From Escherichia coli (lineage in GTDB: Bacteria > Pseudomonadota > Gammaproteobacteria > Enterobacterales > Enterobacteriaceae), in the NCBI RefSeq assembly GCF_003334355.1, contig NZ_QOWP01000017.1: a stretch of DNA of 64,000 nucleotides; one strand, given 5' to 3'. The notes under the pieces were generated by a model. That model saw only the letters and a list, made by a program, of their open reading frames with translations, had not been told where the DNA came from and made no database searches. The translations under genes were made by a program, and so were the position numbers. Below, piece after piece: positions 12,644 to 20,185 of the stretch; position 1 is the stretch's first letter; every line of letters begins with the position of its first letter.

Positions 12644-12648
12644 ACATC

Positions 12649-12670
12649 GCCGCCTGCGGGCGGCTTTTTT
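12649..12670 (+). terminator. Intrinsic terminator after Q
   Basis: gccgcc-tgcg-ggcggc hairpin followed by T6 at 12665..12670, 5 nt after Q stop. Confidence 0.7.
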
Positions 12671-12812
12671 ACACCCCGCCATCACGCCCTCACACGCTCA
12701 TCACCGCACAAAAAATCCCGCAGACACACCAACGCCTCAACTGGCAGACTAAACGCCATCACGACGCGCTCAGACGCTGAAAAAATAAAATCAGCACCAC
12801 CGCCAGCGCGCA

Positions 12813-12831
12813 GTGCTTTCCCCGCCTCGCC
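12813..12831. other. cos: P2 cos site (19-nt cohesive end, joined in prophage)
   Basis: gtgctttccccgcctcgcc is the reverse complement of the P2 cohesive end GGCGAGGCGGGGAAAGCAC (from memory); lies between Q and A as expected. Confidence 0.85.
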
Positions 12832-13116
12832 CGCCCGCTTCATGGGGCGGTTTTAATGCAGTTGCATAGATACTATGGATCCGCACCAGTCCTGACCGCA
12901 CGCAGCCTGAACGGACATCCCCAACGCATGCAAAAACATTCACTTGTTGCATGCATAGCTTTTTAAGTACGCCATACCGCAACTGTACATTTTTAAGCAA
13001 TTGGCAACCTTAAAAAATTTACATTGCTTTCAAGACCTTATCATCCGTAGTCTCTGTTTTTTACTTTGAGCTACATCAATAAAATCTCAAACATGTTTAA
13101 TGCAAAGCCCTTGTTA

Positions 13117-13169
13117 CACAACATAGAATGTATGTCTAGAAACAACGACATACTATATGTTGTGTTTTT
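13117..13169 (+). terminator. Interrupted 15-bp stem-loop plus T5 (terminator-like or operator)
   Basis: cacaacata/tatgttgtg outer stem and tatgtc/gacata inner stem, 10-nt loop, then ttttt. Confidence 0.3.
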
Positions 13170-13231
13170 CCGGCTCTCTGTTCGGTGATATGCCAAATCA
13201 CTTTGCGTTTAAACAGAGCATTATTTCAGGG

Positions 13232-13246
13232 CAAGACTTCGCTCAA
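13232..13246. repeat. Direct repeat copy 1 (caagacttcgctcaa)
   Basis: Exact 15-mer also at 13496..13510. Confidence 0.9.
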
Positions 13247-13309
13247 AAGTCATTCCACCTAAGAAGCGCATATACCGGTGGAAGTTGCCCTCTACTTACA
13301 GGAGGCAAT

Positions 13310-13423
13310 ATGAAGAAATGCTATTACTGCATTCTCGTTCTGGCCCTCTTTGGCTATCCAAACGGTAGTCCGAGTGGTTTGTCAGTAAACGTCAGTAATA
13401 TCAATGTCAGCATTATGCTTTAA
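13310..13423 (+). CDS. Hypothetical small hydrophobic peptide (37 aa) in the P2 old/tin hotspot
   Basis: aggagg at 13300..13305, 4-nt spacer, ATG; MKKCYYCILVLALFGYPNGSPSGLSVNVSNINVSIML; terminator directly downstream. No homolog recognised. Confidence 0.4.
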   Translation: MKKCYYCILVLALFGYPNGSPSGLSVNVSNINVSIML

Positions 13424-13440
13424 TATGCTTCAAACAAAAA

Positions 13441-13465
13441 AACCACCTGCCAGGGTGGTTTTTTT
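13441..13465. terminator. Bidirectional intrinsic terminator
   Basis: accacc/ggtggt stem with A-run upstream (13434..13442) and T7 downstream (13459..13465). Confidence 0.65.
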
Positions 13466-13495
13466 GCGCCCATCATCAATACGATGAAAGACTGA

Positions 13496-13510
13496 CAAGA
13501 CTTCGCTCAA
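13496..13510. repeat. Direct repeat copy 2 (caagacttcgctcaa)
   Basis: Exact 15-mer identical to 13232..13246. Confidence 0.9.
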
Positions 13511-13725
13511 GACGAATTATGCGTCGACATAAGGTTACCCGCAATGATTTTATTAGACTAAATGGATGGCCTTTTATGACCCGGATCAAACGGCTGTCCT
13601 TACCGACATGCTAGTCACTCAATAGCATTTAGCCTTCTAATTCAGCATGCTATTGACCTTCTGCTGCCCCATAACTGCTCCGCATAAGCCATTCAATGCC
13701 ATATCAAATCACGTTGTATTTTTAC

Positions 13726-16002
13726 TCAAATTGGTAACGAGAACCCCGGCCACTCATCAGCAACCGGATACGTGAATTTTTTCCCGTCATAATTTACGGT
13801 CGCGCCACGCGCCAGCGCCTCAAGCTCCCATCGTTGCGGCCTGATACCGTTCTGAGCGAGGTCAACGCGGATACGGGTAATTTGCAATCGTTCAGACCTG
13901 GTCAGTCTGGCAGATGGTGCAATTTCATGCGGTTTTAACGGGATTCCGTTTCTTTGCTGACGATTTGGTGTTCTCAGTCCGTGTTTTAATGCGCCCCTGA
14001 GCGCCATCACGACCTCCGGGTCACTCCATTCGATAACACCGTCATCTACCAGATTAAGCACTGCTGCGGCGTGCTCAGAAGGTGTGGGAGCCGGTAACGA
14101 AGTATCACCACCGGTGAGCTTTCCACAGTTATTGACAGGACTCCGAGGCGCGGCGATGCCGCTTTTTAAAGTCAAAGGCTCAACGACCGGAACTTTCGGC
14201 ACAATGCGCCAGTCCGTCGTTCTGGTGATATGAATATGACGCGCGCCGAGATGCGGCGCGTAAATGCCGACCACTCTCTCGACTTCTTCCTCGTACTCGT
14301 TAACGTCATCCGACGGGCTACGGGCAACCCTGACAGTCTGACAATCGCGCGGGACATTTGCCCCACCCTGCGCGCTGATATACAACGCAAAATCACCACT
14401 GTCTGCAGCAGCGCGAGCAGCCTCGACGCGTTCGTCAAACTCATTAGCAATACTGACGCCGCGAGGCAATTTGCGTAGTTCACGGTAAGCCCCCATTGTC
14501 GGCAGGCCAACCGTTTTAAATTGCGGGATGCGCCACGTTGACGCCCATGCGGTAACAGCCGCCGCTGTGTCTTTCAGCGGTCTGCCGGTATCGTTATCGA
14601 GCTGACCATCCAGTGCATAGCCGTCGATGTTTTTTGAAATGTATTTCGCGATATATCCCGCAGCACCGCCCCGGTTAAGGTATTTTGCCTGAAAACGGTT
14701 TCGCGCGGCTCCTCTTTCGTCGCCATCCTCTTTGAGCGCATAGCGACGCATGATTTCGATAATCTGGTTGCGCTGGCGTGGATTACAAAAAAGCATCATA
14801 TGCCAGTGCGGCGTTCCGTCGTGGTGTGGCTCGACGACACGCAAACCGTAGGCCTGTAAATCATTATCCTTGAATGCCGTGCGCATCAGGCTCCAGATAC
14901 GGCAGAGATAACGCTGCGCATCCTTTGGATTAAATGCCTCATCGTTCCAGCCGTGATTAAGCTGAACGGTTTTACTTTCGCCTTTTCCGACCTGACGTGT
15001 CGGGTGATACTTTGACGGCGCGGTCAGCGTGATAAACATCCCCACATCACCCTCTGCGGCGGCGTAACGCTCAATACCGGCAATGGTGTTCATCAGCTCC
15101 ATCCGGCGAATTTCAGGATTAGAAATACTGCCCATCACCTTACTGATAAGGTCGATGCGCTCGCCGGTTTCCCTGTTTTCAAGGTCACACGATTTAAGAA
15201 ATTCCAGATTTGCCTGGCGGCGCGCACGCACATCACGAATGGCATGTTTACTGGCATAAGGAGAACGGTCTTTATTGACCTCCCCGACAGCAATCAGTAA
15301 CGCCTCATGCCAGCGCATACGCTGGCCTTTAAGCTGATGAGTCCACCACTCATCGTTAAACAGGCGGGCAATGGCAGAATATGCCTGCCTCGTGGTCATC
15401 TGTCCTTTACGGTATTTTTTCCAGTAGAGCGGGGAAATATTGAAAGCACGTGCAGCGCCAGCAACATGACCATAGAGGTGAGCCTGCGCCTCATCCGTAA
15501 ACAGCGATTCTTTTTCGCCATGTGCATCAACCCAGGCATCGCAGAGTTCCTCATACATCATGAAAAGCTGCGATGAGATACGGGCAGCAAACTTTTTCAG
15601 CTCCTTGTCATTCATTCCTGGCAGGCGCGCATAGTGGTCACGCTCTGCCAGAAACAGCAACGACGCGTCGGTGTTCATTTCATGGCGCTGATTCACACGC
15701 TCAATGCGCGGCCATAAACGACGCTGAAAAGTGGATGTGAGGAAATAAAACCCGTGCACCGGGCTTTTATTGCGCCGGATGTAGTCATAGCGTGAAGTAA
15801 ACAGCGAGCGCAAAAAGTAAGGCAGGCGGTTAATCGTGGATAAAACACCTTGCACCTGACGCATCTCGTCACGTGTAAGGGGTCTTTCGCGCCCGACAGC
15901 CTCGCGTGGCGCGTTCCATGCATAAGCACCGGTAAACGCCTTACCGGTGCCTGCGGCAAATGCTGACGGAGGGACAAAACGCCCGGAGGCTTTAACGGCC
16001 AT
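13726..16002 (-). CDS. A: Replication initiation protein gpA (rolling-circle nickase)
   Basis: ORF track 772 aa (track start is TTG at 16044); ATG at 16002 gives MAVKASGRFVPPSAF..., matching P2 gpA as recalled; start uncertain. Confidence 0.9.
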   Translation of the reverse strand: MAVKASGRFVPPSAFAAGTGKAFTGAYAWNAPREAVGRERPLTRDEMRQVQGVLSTINRLPYFLRSLFTSRYDYIRRNKSPVHGFYFLTSTFQRRLWPRIERVNQRHEMNTDASLLFLAERDHYARLPGMNDKELKKFAARISSQLFMMYEELCDAWVDAHGEKESLFTDEAQAHLYGHVAGAARAFNISPLYWKKYRKGQMTTRQAYSAIARLFNDEWWTHQLKGQRMRWHEALLIAVGEVNKDRSPYASKHAIRDVRARRQANLEFLKSCDLENRETGERIDLISKVMGSISNPEIRRMELMNTIAGIERYAAAEGDVGMFITLTAPSKYHPTRQVGKGESKTVQLNHGWNDEAFNPKDAQRYLCRIWSLMRTAFKDNDLQAYGLRVVEPHHDGTPHWHMMLFCNPRQRNQIIEIMRRYALKEDGDERGAARNRFQAKYLNRGGAAGYIAKYISKNIDGYALDGQLDNDTGRPLKDTAAAVTAWASTWRIPQFKTVGLPTMGAYRELRKLPRGVSIANEFDERVEAARAAADSGDFALYISAQGGANVPRDCQTVRVARSPSDDVNEYEEEVERVVGIYAPHLGARHIHITRTTDWRIVPKVPVVEPLTLKSGIAAPRSPVNNCGKLTGGDTSLPAPTPSEHAAAVLNLVDDGVIEWSDPEVVMALRGALKHGLRTPNRQQRNGIPLKPHEIAPSARLTRSERLQITRIRVDLAQNGIRPQRWELEALARGATVNYDGKKFTYPVADEWPGFSLPI

Positions 16003-16267
16003 ATGAGCCAAAAGCCTCTGAACAACGCCTGCTGAGTTGCTCAACCTGCGCGTTTAAATCAGCAAAAGACTTTGCGCTTCCGGTCAGAATATCGTGATGC
16101 ATCAGGCCGGAAACGAGCTGGCTTAATTTCGGATAATAACCAACCACCGCCAGCCATTCCTGACCGGCGTTTTTACCGCTTTCCGCTCTCTTTTTCTCGT
16201 GGAGAATAAACTGAAAGCTGTCACTGGTAACGACATAACGTTCGCCAATTTCAATACGAATACTCAT
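15992..16267 (-). CDS. P2 early-operon small protein (orf83-like)
   Basis: ORF track 91 aa; position just upstream of A. Confidence 0.6.
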   Translation of the reverse strand: MSIRIEIGERYVVTSDSFQFILHEKKRAESGKNAGQEWLAVVGYYPKLSQLVSGLMHHDILTGSAKSFADLNAQVEQLSRRCSEAFGSYGR

Positions 16268-16488
16268 GCCGTTCTCCGGTAATGTTTGTTTTTTGCTTCA
16301 AAGACTGACTGGCAGGAAACACAACGCGTGGCTGACGGATAAGCCGCACGACGGGCAGCAGGTATTGGCGCGTCACACTCTTCGCAAACCAGCGCAGAAG
16401 CACCGCAATGTTTTACCCTTGCCGCGTTAATCTGACGCTCCAGTAATTCAGCCTGTTGTTCCTGAATAAAATCCACGTTGTCCGGCAT
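16264..16488 (-). CDS. DksA/TraR-type C4 zinc-finger protein (P2 orf82-like)
   Basis: ORF track 74 aa with CxxC...CxxC (CEECDAPIP...CVSC). Confidence 0.75.
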   Translation of the reverse strand: MPDNVDFIQEQQAELLERQINAARVKHCGASALVCEECDAPIPAARRAAYPSATRCVSCQSVFEAKNKHYRRTA

Positions 16489-16793
16489 TACCAGCTCCTT
16501 TTGTCGTTAAGTTTTTTAAATTCATCAGCGCAATAGCTGGCAATTTCTGTCGTTAATTTCGTCAGTTCATCCACGGAGGAGATTTGCTTGTGAAATACAG
16601 CGCGTTTAACAAGTAAATTGACCACATCAGACAGGATATTTAATTCATTCTGATAAATCGCGATAACAGACTCAGTTATTTCGCGTTTTTCTTTATCAAG
16701 ACCAAGTTGAATAAGAGATAGATCGCCATTTTTCATAACGGTGATTTTTAAGGCGTTATTCAGTAATACAACTGAACGAGAACAGGACATCAA
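16488..16793 (-). CDS. Hypothetical early-operon protein, AT-rich
   Basis: ORF track 101 aa, K/N/I-rich, visibly lower GC than flanking genes; start and stop overlap neighbours. Confidence 0.55.
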
Positions 16794-17014
16794 AGCACCT
16801 CCCCGCGAGACAATCCGATATTGTGAAATTTTTCCGACTCCTGACTGAGCAGCTCGACTATCTCTACGCGGGATAACTCCGCCTTTGTGATGTGTCGAAT
16901 CATGGCGTCAAGATGAGAAGAAAAGCGCGTCGCTGCATCGGCCTGTGCTTCGGTTCTGGCCTGTTGCAGCAGTAATGCGTATTTACCGCACTGATTTTCA
17001 GAAACTGTATGCAT
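16790..17014 (-). CDS. Hypothetical early-operon protein (orf80-like)
   Basis: Track ORF 85 aa; ATG at 17014 preceded by ggaga. Confidence 0.55.
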
Positions 17015-17077
17015 GACTTTCTCCAGGCAAAAAGAAGCCCCGCACAATTAAGTGCGTTAAAAACTCTGGTTAATTAC

Positions 17078-17584
17078 TTAATGCAGATATTGCTCTGGTT
17101 TTACCGACGTCAGAATTGTCGGTGCATACTCAAACAGGCTGAATAATTCACGTAATGCACGGAATAAAGCATCACGCCAGTAACATGATTCTTCATTAAT
17201 TCGCCAGTATGGCTGGTTGAATTCTTTTTCAGTCAATCCGGCATGCATAAATAAAGTACGACGCTGACTGACTGTTAAAAAACTAATATATGCATACTCA
17301 CTTGCGCCAACCTGACGGCGTTTTGAGAATGCCCCACGCAATTCATCAATTGCACAAACCAGCCGTTCACGTTCGACGTCGTTCATTTCTTCAAAACGCA
17401 TCGTTGCGTGACGTTGTTTTAACTGCGCATGAAAGCAAACTGTTAGCCGTTCGCGCTCCATCATCTGATTATAATAATCACATGTATCCTGCCAGCGAGG
17501 GACGGCCAGATGCTTACCAATTATCCGGCGCATAGCTGCTGGCTGTTTTTCAACGAGATTGAGCGTCATCACTGTCATTTCCAT
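17078..17584 (-). CDS. B: Replication protein gpB (helicase loader)
   Basis: ORF track 168 aa ...MTVMTLNLVEKQPAAMRRIIGKHLAVPRWQDTCDYY...; recognised as P2 gpB family. Confidence 0.85.
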   Translation of the reverse strand: MEMTVMTLNLVEKQPAAMRRIIGKHLAVPRWQDTCDYYNQMMERERLTVCFHAQLKQRHATMRFEEMNDVERERLVCAIDELRGAFSKRRQVGASEYAYISFLTVSQRRTLFMHAGLTEKEFNQPYWRINEESCYWRDALFRALRELFSLFEYAPTILTSVKPEQYLH

Positions 17585-17772
17585 ACCCTCCGGCTTTTCA
17601 GAAAGGTCAGAGCCTTTTTTAACGGACTCTGTTTTTTGGTGCGGATAATGATTCCCTTACGCCCCTTACCGTGGGTGATGGTGAAGTCAATCGCCCTGGG
17701 GCTTTCGTTACGCAGTAACTGCGCAATACAACGCGGCTCATTCATAATCACAACCCCATCCACAAAAGCCAT
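17575..17772 (-). CDS. Small early protein between cox and B (orf78-like)
   Basis: ORF track 65 aa; position. Confidence 0.5.
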   Translation of the reverse strand: MAFVDGVVIMNEPRCIAQLLRNESPRAIDFTITHGKGRKGIIIRTKKQSPLKKALTFLKSRRVWK

Positions 17773-18020
17773 GCATCACGCTGTTCAACCGGTCGGTTAT
17801 AAAACGCCTCACGTACAGCGCGATTAAACTCTGGAATGAAAACCCATTTCTCACCGGCGCGGGCCTTCGGCTTATTTGGATCTCGAAGCTCGATAACCGG
17901 TAGCTTGTTAGCCTTTATCATTTCTGTAACTGCGGTTTTTGGTTTACCCAATAAATCTGCAAACTTTTCCGCATGTACCGCATCAAGCGGGTACTTAATC
18001 ACATAATCATTAACTTCCAT
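17748..18020 (-). CDS. cox: Cox (excisionase / switch regulator)
   Basis: ORF track 90 aa MEVNDYVIKYPLDAVHAEKFADLLGKPKTAVTEMIKANKLPVIE...; divergent from C. Confidence 0.85.
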   Translation of the reverse strand: MEVNDYVIKYPLDAVHAEKFADLLGKPKTAVTEMIKANKLPVIELRDPNKPKARAGEKWVFIPEFNRAVREAFYNRPVEQRDAWLLWMGL

Positions 18021-18155
18021 CTATGTTACCCTCATAGGATCCAGCCCCTTAAAAACCGCTTGGAACCGTTTAAGCGGCGCTGGACTCACGCCCGAAAAGG
18101 TTCTGGATTAATGACCTTTTCGGGGAATATAGTCATTAAGTCAGGACTATGTCAA
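18021..18155. promoter_or_regulatory. Immunity switch region (Pe/Pc promoters and operators)
   Basis: Intergenic between divergent cox and C; from P2 biology, sites not pinpointed. Confidence 0.5.
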
Positions 18156-19617: not shown

Positions 19618-19675
19618 AAAAAAAACCCCCACATCATGTGGGGGAAGACAGGGATGGTGTCTATGGCAAGGAAAA
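19618..19675 (-). ncRNA. cpxQ: CpxQ sRNA (cpxP 3-prime UTR-derived) including cpxP terminator
   Basis: Minus-strand sequence uuuuccuugccauagacaccaucccugucuucccccacaugauguggggguuuuuuuu matches CpxQ as recalled; hairpin cccccac/gtggggg plus U8. Confidence 0.65.
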
Positions 19676-19684
19676 CAGGGTTTA

Positions 19685-20185
19685 CTACTGGGAACGTGAG
19701 TTGCTACTACTCAATAGCTTCAACGATGAACTTTTTTGCCATTGCGTCACGTCACGCAACTGCTCCATTCGTTGTTGATGTTTCTCGTTTAAAACCGCTT
19801 GCTGCTCCGGCGTTAACAGGCGATACATTTGGTTGCGGACTTTTGCCATCTCAACCTGACGAGCAATTTGCTCATTCGCCATTTTTTCTGCCTGTGCGCG
19901 CACAGCGTTTTCATCAAAATTTTCTGCGGTGACAAGGCGATGCATTGTCTCCAGTTCGCTAACATTAACAGGAGGCTGTTCGTGCCGGGCCTGTTGCATA
20001 AGATCTCGCATCTGCTGACGCTGATGTTCGGTTAAACTTATGCCGTCGAACATATGGCTCTGCGTACTGCGCTGCGTAAGTTCTTCACCCGGATGCCAGT
20101 TATCGCCTGAACCGACTTCAGCAGCGTGGCTTAATGAACTGACTGCCAGCGTTGAGGCCATGACGGCAGCGGTAACTATGCGCAT
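19685..20185 (-). CDS. cpxP: Periplasmic stress adaptor CpxP
   Basis: ORF track; [36 protein letters not shown]... 166 aa from second Met. Confidence 0.95.

What the first reader, a model, noticed from the sequence alone, without database searches (positions are those of the whole stretch)
16488..16793. AT-rich 101-aa ORF embedded in the prophage early (replication) operon
Seen: the ORF is rich in Lys/Asn/Ile codons and much lower in GC than the flanking early genes (eyeball estimate, not computed), and is translationally coupled to both neighbours by overlapping start and stop codons. Established: this position holds small accessory ORFs in P2. Inference: the composition contrast suggests a separately acquired moron expressed at the start of the lytic programme, the typical place for host-takeover or anti-defence factors. 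No domain recognised.
Basis: partly seen in the sequence, partly recalled or inferred. Interest (0 to 1): 0.45.

Follow-up and report, generated by a model that had tools for sequence, protein, structure and literature searches.

The report
P2 prophage early gene orf81
The AT-rich ORF is the already-catalogued gene orf81 (DUF5405 family, function unknown) of a P2-type prophage: an old, optional small early gene, not a recent foreign insertion, so the finding is largely ordinary.

Summary
A 100-aa ORF (ATG at 16790, not TTG at 16793; stop at 16488, minus strand) has 36.3% GC against 51.9% for the window. Its start and stop codons overlap those of both neighbours by one base.

It is not anonymous. 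It is 94% identical to phage P2 Orf81, matches Pfam DUF5405 (E 9e-34), and RefSeq already labels the identical sequence "DUF5405 family protein". About 29% of complete E. coli genomes carry the block.

Low GC is a family trait. It persists in relatives only 30-36% identical and is lowest in the operon in 64 of 69 loci. About half comes from a Lys/Asn/Ile/Leu-rich, Gly/Ala/Pro-poor composition. The rest is AT-ending codons, which essential gene B shares. So it does not indicate recent acquisition.

Orf81 is a remote paralogue of Orf83, the gene just upstream of replication gene A.

It is optional across the wider family. Phages 186 and Fels-2, and 21 of 75 related viral loci, lack it, including 19 with full-length B and A. 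It is fixed in the P2 genus. dN/dS is 0.14-0.41.

No structural or sequence match gives a function. My favoured but weakly supported reading is a small early binding protein aimed at the host, like its RNA-polymerase-binding neighbour Orf82.

The parts
16488..16790 (-). orf81: 100-aa DUF5405-family protein, the finding itself. The likely start is ATG 16790; TTG 16793 is one codon upstream in frame.
   Evidence: 94-98% identical to Orf81 of P2, Wphi and fiAA91-ss. Pfam DUF5405 E 9.2e-34 and PHROG 265 E 6e-54. RefSeq WP_021523482.1 on the identical DNA. GC 0.363. dN/dS 0.14-0.41. AF2 model pLDDT 87: four beta strands followed by two long helices.
16798..16802 (-). Shine-Dalgarno GGAGG, 7 nt upstream of the orf81 ATG, inside the 3' end of orf80
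   Evidence: Read directly from the sequence.
16790..17014 (-). orf80-like gene (DUF2732, 74 aa). Its TGA stop overlaps the orf81 ATG by 1 nt.
   Evidence: PHROG 128 E 2.6e-34. RefSeq annotates it as a DUF2732 family protein. Overlap or close spacing with orf81 is kept in distant loci L002-L008.
16264..16488 (-). orf82-like gene (TraR/DksA C4 zinc finger, 74 aa). Its ATG overlaps the orf81 TAA stop by 1 nt.
   Evidence: NCBIfam TIGR02419 E 4.7e-22 and PHROG 54. P2 Orf82 binds RNA polymerase and inhibits rrnB P1 in vitro (PMC9239242).
15992..16267 (-). orf83-like gene (91 aa): a second, remote DUF5405 paralogue, overlapping the start of gene A by 11 nt
   Evidence: Pfam DUF5405 E 8e-13. hhalign of the Orf81 profile against the Orf83 profile gives 94% probability, E 1.1e-7, over 82 columns. 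RefSeq annotates 'DUF5405 family protein (x2)'.
13726..16002 (-). gene A (rolling-circle replication endonuclease), the last gene of the coupled chain
   Evidence: tblastn 97-98% to P2-type gpA. RefSeq annotates it as replication endonuclease.
17078..17578 (-). gene B (P2 replication protein B, 166 aa)
   Evidence: 98-100% identical to gpB in 75 phage records. PHROG 235.
17575..18020 (-). orf78 (17575-17745) and cox (17748-18020), the first genes of the early operon
   Evidence: PHROG 273. RefSeq annotates a Cox family DNA-binding protein. Matches the P2 annotation.
18126..18155 (-). Pe-like early promoter (TTGACA, 18 nt spacer, TATATT; 11 of 12 matches) that would drive the whole operon
   Evidence: Promoter scan. 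The position corresponds to P2 Pe. No promoter-like site lies next to orf81 itself.

Best explanation
What it is (shown). This is gene orf81 of a P2-type (Peduovirus) prophage integrated next to cpxP. It is a real protein-coding gene of the C-repressed early lytic operon: Pe, cox, orf78, B, orf80, orf81, orf82, orf83, A.

How it is expressed (inferred from anatomy). It has no promoter or terminator of its own. It is translated as one link in a chain of genes with overlapping stop and start codons that runs from orf80 into replication gene A.

The protein (shown). It is a 100-aa DUF5405-family protein with no catalytic motif. The predicted fold is a four-stranded beta sheet followed by a two-helix hairpin.

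Its evolution (shown). It is an ancient, diverged paralogue of Orf83, the DUF5405 gene immediately upstream of A. It is fixed in the P2 genus but optional across the wider family.

The low GC (shown). It is a long-standing property of the gene family. It comes from a Lys/Asn/Ile/Leu-rich, Gly/Ala/Pro-poor sequence plus an AT3 codon bias that gene B shares. It is not a mark of recent horizontal acquisition.

How it most likely works (inference, about 0.35). It is a small non-enzymatic binding protein made at the start of lytic growth. It acts on a host protein to condition the cell, in the same way as its coupled neighbour Orf82 (RNA-polymerase binder) and the 186 early proteins Fil and Dhr. 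It is not an indispensable part of the A/B replication machinery.
For: Identity:
- 94% identical to P2 Orf81 and 95-98% to Wphi and fiAA91-ss, found in 75 phage records.
- Same gene order as annotated P2.
- Pfam DUF5405 E 9e-34. RefSeq names the identical sequence a DUF5405 family protein.
- The orf80-82 block is in 1597 of 5426 complete E. coli genomes.

Real gene:
- dN/dS is 0.14-0.41.
- Length and fold are conserved down to 30% identity. The AF2 model has pLDDT 87.

Old, not recent:
- Homologues of 30-36% identity sit in the same slot after DUF2732 and are also GC-poor, 0.37-0.42 against 0.47-0.57 in the flanks.
- Across 69 loci the mean GC is 0.388 against 0.515 for the other early genes. 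Orf81 is the lowest-GC gene in 64 of them.
- Gene B shows the same GC3 deficit.

Paralogy with Orf83:
- Both match DUF5405.
- hhalign gives 94% probability, E 1e-7.
- A bridging member at the orf81 position in Yersinia phage vB_YenM_06.16-2 hits both PHROG 265 and PHROG 154.

Optional:
- Absent from 186, Fels-2 and 613R3.
- Absent from 21 of 75 IMG/VR loci. Of these, 19 carry full-length RepB (gpB) and a gpA 59-78% identical to this one.
- The 186 GenBank record calls its orf79-84 'not essential'.

Host-directed reading:
- Orf82 is a proven RNAP binder (PMC9239242).
- 186 Fil and Dhr in the same operon are host-directed.
- Orf81 has the highest dN of the B-A block, 4-10 times that of B.
- It has no Rep, helicase or primase similarity.
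Against: - No experimental datum on Orf81 was found. 'DUF5405' has no hit in the paper library.
- Tight synteny with B and A, and paralogy with Orf83 (which is coupled to A), fit a replication-linked role equally well.
- PHROG labels both families 'replication initiation protein'. This looks like a propagated name; UniRef carries the misspelt 'Relication initiation protein'.
- Translational coupling with Orf80 suggests a complex. A linker-fused AF2 model gave pTM 0.40, which is no support either way.
Confidence: 0.6

Rival explanations
1. Replication accessory factor. Orf81, like its paralogue Orf83, modulates P2 rolling-circle replication. It could assist the cis-acting A nickase at ori, or the B-DnaB helicase-loading step. 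It would be helpful but not strictly required.
For: - It always lies between B and A.
- Its paralogue Orf83 overlaps the A start.
- In isolated phages it co-occurs one-to-one with P2-type B: 75 records each.
- Every Orf81-bearing locus has a RepB-type gene. 186-type phages, which lack B, lack Orf81.
- The PHROG label is 'replication initiation protein'.
Against: - 19 IMG/VR loci carry full-length RepB and a gpA 59-78% identical to this one, but no Orf81. P2-type B/A replication therefore does not need it.
- It has no similarity to any replication domain.
- Co-occurrence with B is confounded by physical linkage.
- Its dN is much higher than that of B or A.
Confidence: 0.25
2. Anti-defence protein. 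Orf81 would neutralise a host immune system early in infection.
For: - It is expressed early, is small and is non-enzymatic.
- Its distribution across the family is patchy.
- It is the fastest-evolving gene of the block. The N-terminal half has been swapped by recombination in vB_YpM_115 and E. coli C41.
- An extra small ORF is inserted next to it in some genomes.
Against: - dN/dS stays well below 1.
- The gene is fixed and 89-98% identical across the P2 genus in very different hosts (E. coli, Salmonella, Yersinia). This fits a conserved target better than an arms race.
- It is not acidic and not DNA-mimic-like: 14 basic against 13 acidic residues.
- No library of anti-defence families was available to test membership.
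Confidence: 0.12
3. Recently acquired foreign moron. The low GC would mark a gene captured lately from an AT-rich donor.
For: GC is 0.363 against about 0.50 in the flanks. The gene is absent from some relatives, where the flanking genes abut.
Against: - The same slot, same family and same low GC are found in lineages whose Orf81 is only 30-36% identical.
- It is a paralogue of the resident Orf83.
- It has no promoter or terminator of its own.
- The AT3 bias is shared with B.
Confidence: 0.03
4. The reading frame matters mainly as a translational relay. Ribosomes passing through the overlapping ORFs keep the long early transcript translated. This avoids polarity and delivers ribosomes to gene A. 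The protein product itself would be of little importance.
For: The overlap chain is unbroken from orf80 to A. The 186 GenBank record notes that translation to the end of orf84 appears necessary for translation of A, and that a terminator acts when A is not translated.
Against: - The protein sequence is under purifying selection.
- The fold and specific residues (L26, K33, Y46, D55, C87) are kept at 30% identity.
- Phages lacking orf81 keep the relay by joining the neighbours directly.
Confidence: 0.05

Closest known systems
Bacteriophage P2 Orf81 (AAD03303.1; Pfam DUF5405 / PHROG 265)
   Same: 94% amino-acid identity, same length, same position between orf80 and orf82, same 1-nt overlaps and same low GC (0.373 in P2).
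   Different: Six amino-acid substitutions only. This copy is in a prophage beside cpxP rather than in the P2 reference genome.
P2 Orf83 / phage 186 Orf83 (DUF5405, PHROG 154), the gene just upstream of replication gene A
   Same: Same Pfam family. Profile-profile match of 94% probability over nearly the full length. Similar size, and in the same operon.
   Different: No pairwise BLAST similarity. Orf83 has ordinary GC (0.47). It is far more widespread: 692 clusters at 90% identity, against 20 clusters at 50% identity for the Orf81 type; the two counts come from different databases and clustering levels. Orf83 is also present in 186-type phages that lack Orf81.
P2 Orf82 / lambda Orf73 / F-plasmid TraR (small early proteins that reprogram host RNA polymerase)
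   Same: Small non-essential proteins of early phage operons. Orf82 is translationally coupled to orf81.
   Different: No sequence or fold relationship. Orf81 has no zinc finger and no DxxDxA motif. Any functional analogy is inference only.
Phage 186 Fil and Dhr (early-operon host-directed inhibitors)
   Same: Small, dispensable, host-directed products of the equivalent early lytic operon of a P2-like phage.
   Different: Unrelated sequences. They lie upstream of the B-equivalent position. 186 has no Orf81-type gene.
Morons in the sense used for lambdoid phages (extra gene between conserved neighbours)
   Same: Present or absent between genes that are adjacent in relatives, with deviant base composition.
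   Different: No promoter or terminator of its own. It is embedded by overlapping codons in a repressed lytic operon, is ancient rather than recent, and is a paralogue of a resident gene.

Membership tests
Pfam DUF5405 (PF17399) | Significant full-length match to the family HMM | tested here: met
   E 9.2e-34, score 116, model positions 1-88 of 88. AFDB50 and BFVD fold matches are other DUF5405 proteins.
P2 Orf81 orthologous group (PHROG 265) | High identity to P2 Orf81 and a match to the PHROG profile | tested here: met
   94% identity to AF063097 orf81. phrog_265 E 6e-54 over profile positions 1-99 of 99.
P2 Orf81 orthologous group (PHROG 265) | Position in the Pe early operon between the DUF2732 gene (orf80) and the TraR-like gene (orf82), upstream of gene A | tested here: met
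   Gene order matches P2. The same order is found in all 45 IMG/VR loci of this architecture.
Moron (autonomous extra gene in a phage genome) | Present in some phages and absent in relatives, where the flanking genes are adjacent | tested here: met
   DUF2732 abuts TraR in 186, Fels-2 and 613R3. DUF2732 abuts Orf83 in 18 IMG/VR loci.
Moron (autonomous extra gene in a phage genome) | Own promoter and terminator, forming an independent transcription unit | tested here: not met
   No promoter-like site flanks the ORF. The only terminator-like hairpin near it is a weak 5-bp stem on the opposite strand. Start and stop codons overlap the neighbours.
Moron (autonomous extra gene in a phage genome) | Base composition unlike the surrounding genome because of recent foreign origin | tested here: inconclusive
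   The composition does deviate. But the deviation is conserved across deeply diverged orthologues and partly shared with gene B, so it does not indicate recent origin.
Moron (autonomous extra gene in a phage genome) | Expression from the repressed prophage | not testable with these tools
   No expression data were available. Its position inside the C-repressed Pe operon argues against it.
Replication initiation proteins (the PHROG 265 label) | Recognisable initiator, nickase, helicase-loader or origin-binding domain | tested here: not met
   Only DUF5405 in Pfam, and nothing in NCBIfam. No PDB relative by sequence or fold.
Replication initiation proteins (the PHROG 265 label) | Required wherever the cognate replication genes (P2-type A and B) occur | tested here: not met
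   19 loci carry full-length RepB plus gpA but lack it.
Known anti-defence protein families | Homology to a characterised inhibitor (Ocr, Ard, Acr, Tad, Gad and others), or demonstrated inhibition of a defence system | not testable with these tools
   No anti-defence profile library was available. PADLOC (defence systems only) gave no match. Fold searches returned no characterised inhibitor.

The most novel reading that the evidence does not exclude
Orf81-type DUF5405 proteins are a dedicated early host-takeover or anti-defence effector of P2-genus phages. They would have arisen by duplication of Orf83 and then specialised, using a variable N-terminal beta sheet and a conserved helical hairpin, to bind a conserved enterobacterial target. 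They would work alongside the RNA-polymerase-binding Orf82.
Probability: 0.3. Interest if true: 0.5.

Novelty: already known. Interest (0 to 1): 0.2.

Why it matters
The gene sits in roughly three of every ten complete E. coli genomes, and in a textbook phage, yet has no known function. A defined role for DUF5405 proteins would fill one of the last blanks in the P2 early operon. It could also reveal another small host-directed effector next to the TraR-like Orf82.

As a scan finding, however, it adds little. The gene, its family and its position are already in the databases. The compositional oddity does not signal new cargo.

Tried and rejected
- Pairwise BLASTP of Orf81 against Orf83 gave no alignment. 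The relationship appears only with profiles.
- hmmsearch of the Orf81 and Orf83 profiles against PDB sequences gave noise only.
- Foldseek against BFVD and AFDB50 returned other DUF5405 or uncharacterised phage proteins. There were weak, unconvincing matches to a ZapA-annotated protein and to integrase N-terminal domains, with TM 0.4-0.5. I rejected these as evidence of function.
- PADLOC and NCBIfam gave no match.
- The fusion partner seen in some Orf83-type proteins is only another DUF (DUF7415), so there is no Rosetta-stone clue.
- An Orf80-linker-Orf81 AF2 model with a paired alignment gave pTM 0.40 and lower domain confidence. This gives no support for a complex, but the method is weak.
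- Rfam and promoter/terminator scans found no RNA family or signal inside the ORF.
- Literature: 'DUF5405' gave zero papers. 'orf81' with P2 gave only tables listing 'unknown'. DUF2732 gave nothing relevant. The Christie and Calendar P2 review is not held in the library.
- The idea that Orf81 strictly co-occurs with P2-type B held in isolated phages (75 and 75 records). IMG/VR loci with B but no Orf81 broke it.

Full report
**1. The observation**

The window holds the early region of a P2-type prophage, on the minus strand beside cpxP, cpxR and cpxA. The gene order is int (+), C (+), then cox, orf78, B, orf80, the target ORF, orf82, orf83 and A, followed by the portal gene Q.

The target ORF runs from 16790 (ATG) to 16488. 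GGAGG lies 7 nt before the ATG. Both the P2 GenBank annotation and RefSeq PGAP, on a 100% identical E. coli chromosome, start the gene at this ATG, giving 100 aa.

The orf80 stop and orf81 start read TGATG. The orf81 stop and orf82 start read TAATG. So the gene is coupled to both neighbours, as described. The overlap chain continues through orf82/orf83 (4 nt) and orf83/A (11 nt).

GC is 0.363, against 0.519 for the window and 0.44-0.54 for the neighbouring genes. That is the 2.4th percentile of all 303-nt windows. Lys, Asn and Ile are enriched, as are Leu, Ser and Val. Gly, Ala and Pro are depleted.

**2. What it is**

tblastn finds the protein in 75 phage records at 79-98% identity. All are P2-genus phages of Escherichia, Yersinia and Salmonella. 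They include P2 itself (orf81, 94%), Wphi (gp81) and L-413C.

The protein matches Pfam DUF5405 over the whole model (E 9e-34) and PHROG 265. The orf80-orf82 block occurs in 1597 of 5426 complete E. coli genomes at 95% nucleotide identity or more, where RefSeq labels it 'DUF5405 family protein'. The ORF is therefore a known, catalogued gene of unknown function. It is not an unrecognised insert.

A search of 1.84 billion representative proteins found only 20 clusters, so the Orf81 type is a narrow family. Fold matches place it in P2-like elements of Enterobacterales.

**3. Is the low GC a sign of acquisition?**

I located distant homologues of 30-36% identity on their contigs. In every case the gene lies directly after the DUF2732 gene (orf80 type). 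It overlaps that gene or follows it closely. It precedes TraR, Orf83 or A. In every case it is also the GC-poor member, at 0.37-0.42 against 0.47-0.57.

I then took 80 IMG/VR loci anchored on gpA and scanned them with HMMs built here. Including the loci fetched earlier, 69 loci carry Orf81. In these loci it averages 0.388 GC, against 0.515 for the other early genes pooled. It is the lowest-GC gene in 64 of them.

Synonymous sites are saturated at such divergence. The composition is therefore maintained, not inherited from a recent donor.

The deficit breaks down as follows. The amino-acid sequence alone predicts GC 0.446. The remainder is AT-ending codons: GC3 is 0.36 against 0.57 expected (z = -4.6). 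Essential gene B has the same synonymous bias (z = -6.0). The composition contrast is therefore real but does not support 'separately acquired'.

**4. A paralogue in the same operon**

Context tables showed that the ~91-aa gene just upstream of A also carries a DUF5405 hit. The window's Orf83 matches DUF5405 at E 8e-13.

BLASTP sees nothing between Orf81 and Orf83. Profile-profile comparison gives 94% probability, E 1e-7, over 82 columns, including the conserved Tyr and Cys.

In Yersinia phage vB_YenM_06.16-2 the orf81 slot holds a bridging DUF5405 protein. It hits PHROG 265 at 3e-26 and PHROG 154 at 1.5e-9.

The simplest history is an old tandem duplication of a DUF5405 gene in front of A. 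One copy then diverged into the AT-rich Orf81 type.

**5. Presence and absence**

Within the P2 genus the gene is effectively universal:
- Orf81 is in 75 phage records.
- Full-length gpB at 95% identity or more is in 75 records.
- gpA at 90% identity or more is in 77 records, at least one of which is a 3.2-kb fragment.
- Every IMG/VR locus with gpA at 80% identity or more has Orf81.

Outside the genus it is optional:
- Phage 186, Fels-2 and vB_EcoM-613R3 go straight from DUF2732 to TraR.
- Of 75 IMG/VR loci with a complete interval, 54 have Orf81 and 21 lack it.
- Among those 21, 18 have the order RepB, DUF2732, Orf83, gpA, with gpA 73-78% identical to this one. They lack both Orf81 and TraR.

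Orf81, TraR and Orf83 occur in nearly every combination. The interval between DUF2732 and A is thus a set of interchangeable small accessory genes.

Some genomes carry an extra 81-aa ORF (PHROG 11056) between orf80 and orf81. These are vB_YpM_115, E. coli C41 and L024. In the two examined in detail (vB_YpM_115 and C41), orf81 has a recombinant N-terminal half.

The 186 GenBank record states that its orf79-84 are not essential.

**6. Selection**

Among five P2-genus genomes, orf81 has dN/dS of 0.14-0.41. That is purifying selection, so the gene is real. Its dN is 4-10 times that of B (dN/dS 0.02-0.05) and higher than the 5' part of A. It is the fastest-evolving gene of the block.

**7. Structure and function**

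AlphaFold2 with a 12-sequence alignment gives a confident model: pLDDT 87, pTM 0.74. It has four beta strands (residues 7-46) followed by helices 49-66 and 73-98. The most conserved stretch is [23 protein letters not shown], at the end of the last strand and through the first helix.

No search gave a functional lead:
- PDB sequence searches give noise.
- BFVD and AFDB50 return other DUF5405 or uncharacterised phage and prophage proteins, some from Firmicutes. They also return weak ZapA-like and integrase-N-terminal matches that I do not trust.
- There is no catalytic motif. The net charge is near neutral.
- A linker-fused Orf80-Orf81 model gave pTM 0.40, so it does not support a complex.
- No RNA family, promoter or terminator lies inside the gene.

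**8. Most likely mechanism**

Shown:
- It is an early-operon gene, translated in a coupled chain.
- It is dispensable for P2-type A/B replication on comparative grounds.
- It is conserved as a protein.

Inferred: it is a small binding protein.

Three points lean me towards a host-directed role:
- The coupled downstream gene product, P2 Orf82, binds E. coli RNA polymerase and inhibits rrnB P1 (IC50 250 nM). Its overexpression was reported to stop growth (PMC9239242).
- 186 Fil and Dhr, in the same operon type, are host-directed.
- Orf81 evolves faster than the replication genes.

I put this reading at about 0.35. A replication-accessory role is about 0.25. That role rests on synteny, paralogy with A-coupled Orf83 and linkage with B. 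Anti-defence is about 0.12. A pure translational-relay role is about 0.05. Recent foreign acquisition is about 0.03.

**9. Comparison, novelty and verdict**

The feature is a member of P2 Orf81 / DUF5405: the HMM match, the identity and the synteny were all tested and met.

It is not a classical moron, because it has no transcription signals of its own. The PHROG label 'replication initiation protein' is not supported by any domain or by the distribution.

The gene is already known as an uncharacterised P2 early ORF. The modest additions here are the Orf81-Orf83 paralogy, the patchy family-level distribution, and the finding that low GC is an old family trait.

Interest is low (0.2). It would rise only if the host-takeover or anti-defence reading were shown experimentally.

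Noticed in passing
window 12644-13725: An unannotated, AT-rich (38-43% GC) gap of 1.08 kb lies between the end of gene A and the portal gene Q. This is where P2 carries orf91, tin and old. Only short ORFs occur here, for example 88 aa at 13157-13423 (+). A hairpin-rich stretch at 13409-13520 gives weak sub-threshold RNAI and Phe-leader hits. The first ~240 nt next to Q are conserved in P2-like phages. The rest matches only a few Peduovirus records at 86-88% identity, mostly unannotated.
   Followed up: partly
window 19618-19690 (+): A full-length but sub-threshold Rfam match to the sRNA family Hrs1 (44.5 bits against a gathering score of 56.4; E 3e-6). It lies at the junction between the prophage int end and the 3' end of cpxP, on the strand opposite to cpxP. 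It may relate to the cpxP 3'UTR and terminator and to the phage attachment site.
   Followed up: no
L013 1250-1495 (Yersinia phage vB_YpM_115); L016 1759-2004 (E. coli C41); also L024: Some P2-genus genomes carry an extra 81-aa ORF (PHROG 11056, GC 0.41) between a C-terminally shortened orf80 and orf81. It has a weak MotA-like hit. In L013 and L016, the two loci examined in detail, the N-terminal half of orf81 is replaced by a divergent allele while the C-terminal half stays P2-like. This is a recombination mosaic with a breakpoint inside orf81.
   Followed up: partly
L009 3508-3813 and 3824-4087 (Yersinia phage vB_YenM_06.16-2): Two DUF5405 genes lie in tandem directly upstream of gpA. The first is intermediate between the Orf81 and Orf83 families (PHROG 265 at 3e-26 and PHROG 154 at 1.5e-9). 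This looks like a snapshot of the duplication that gave rise to Orf81.
   Followed up: yes
L017 5001-5474 and similar 157-aa proteins (P0074 and others): In 186-like prophages the Orf83-type DUF5405 domain is fused to a C-terminal DUF7415 domain. This is a two-domain form of unknown function.
   Followed up: partly
window 17041-17056 (-), between B and orf80: A weak terminator-like hairpin sits where P2 annotates a putative rho-independent terminator between B and orf80. Genes orf80 to A may therefore depend on read-through or anti-termination.
   Followed up: no
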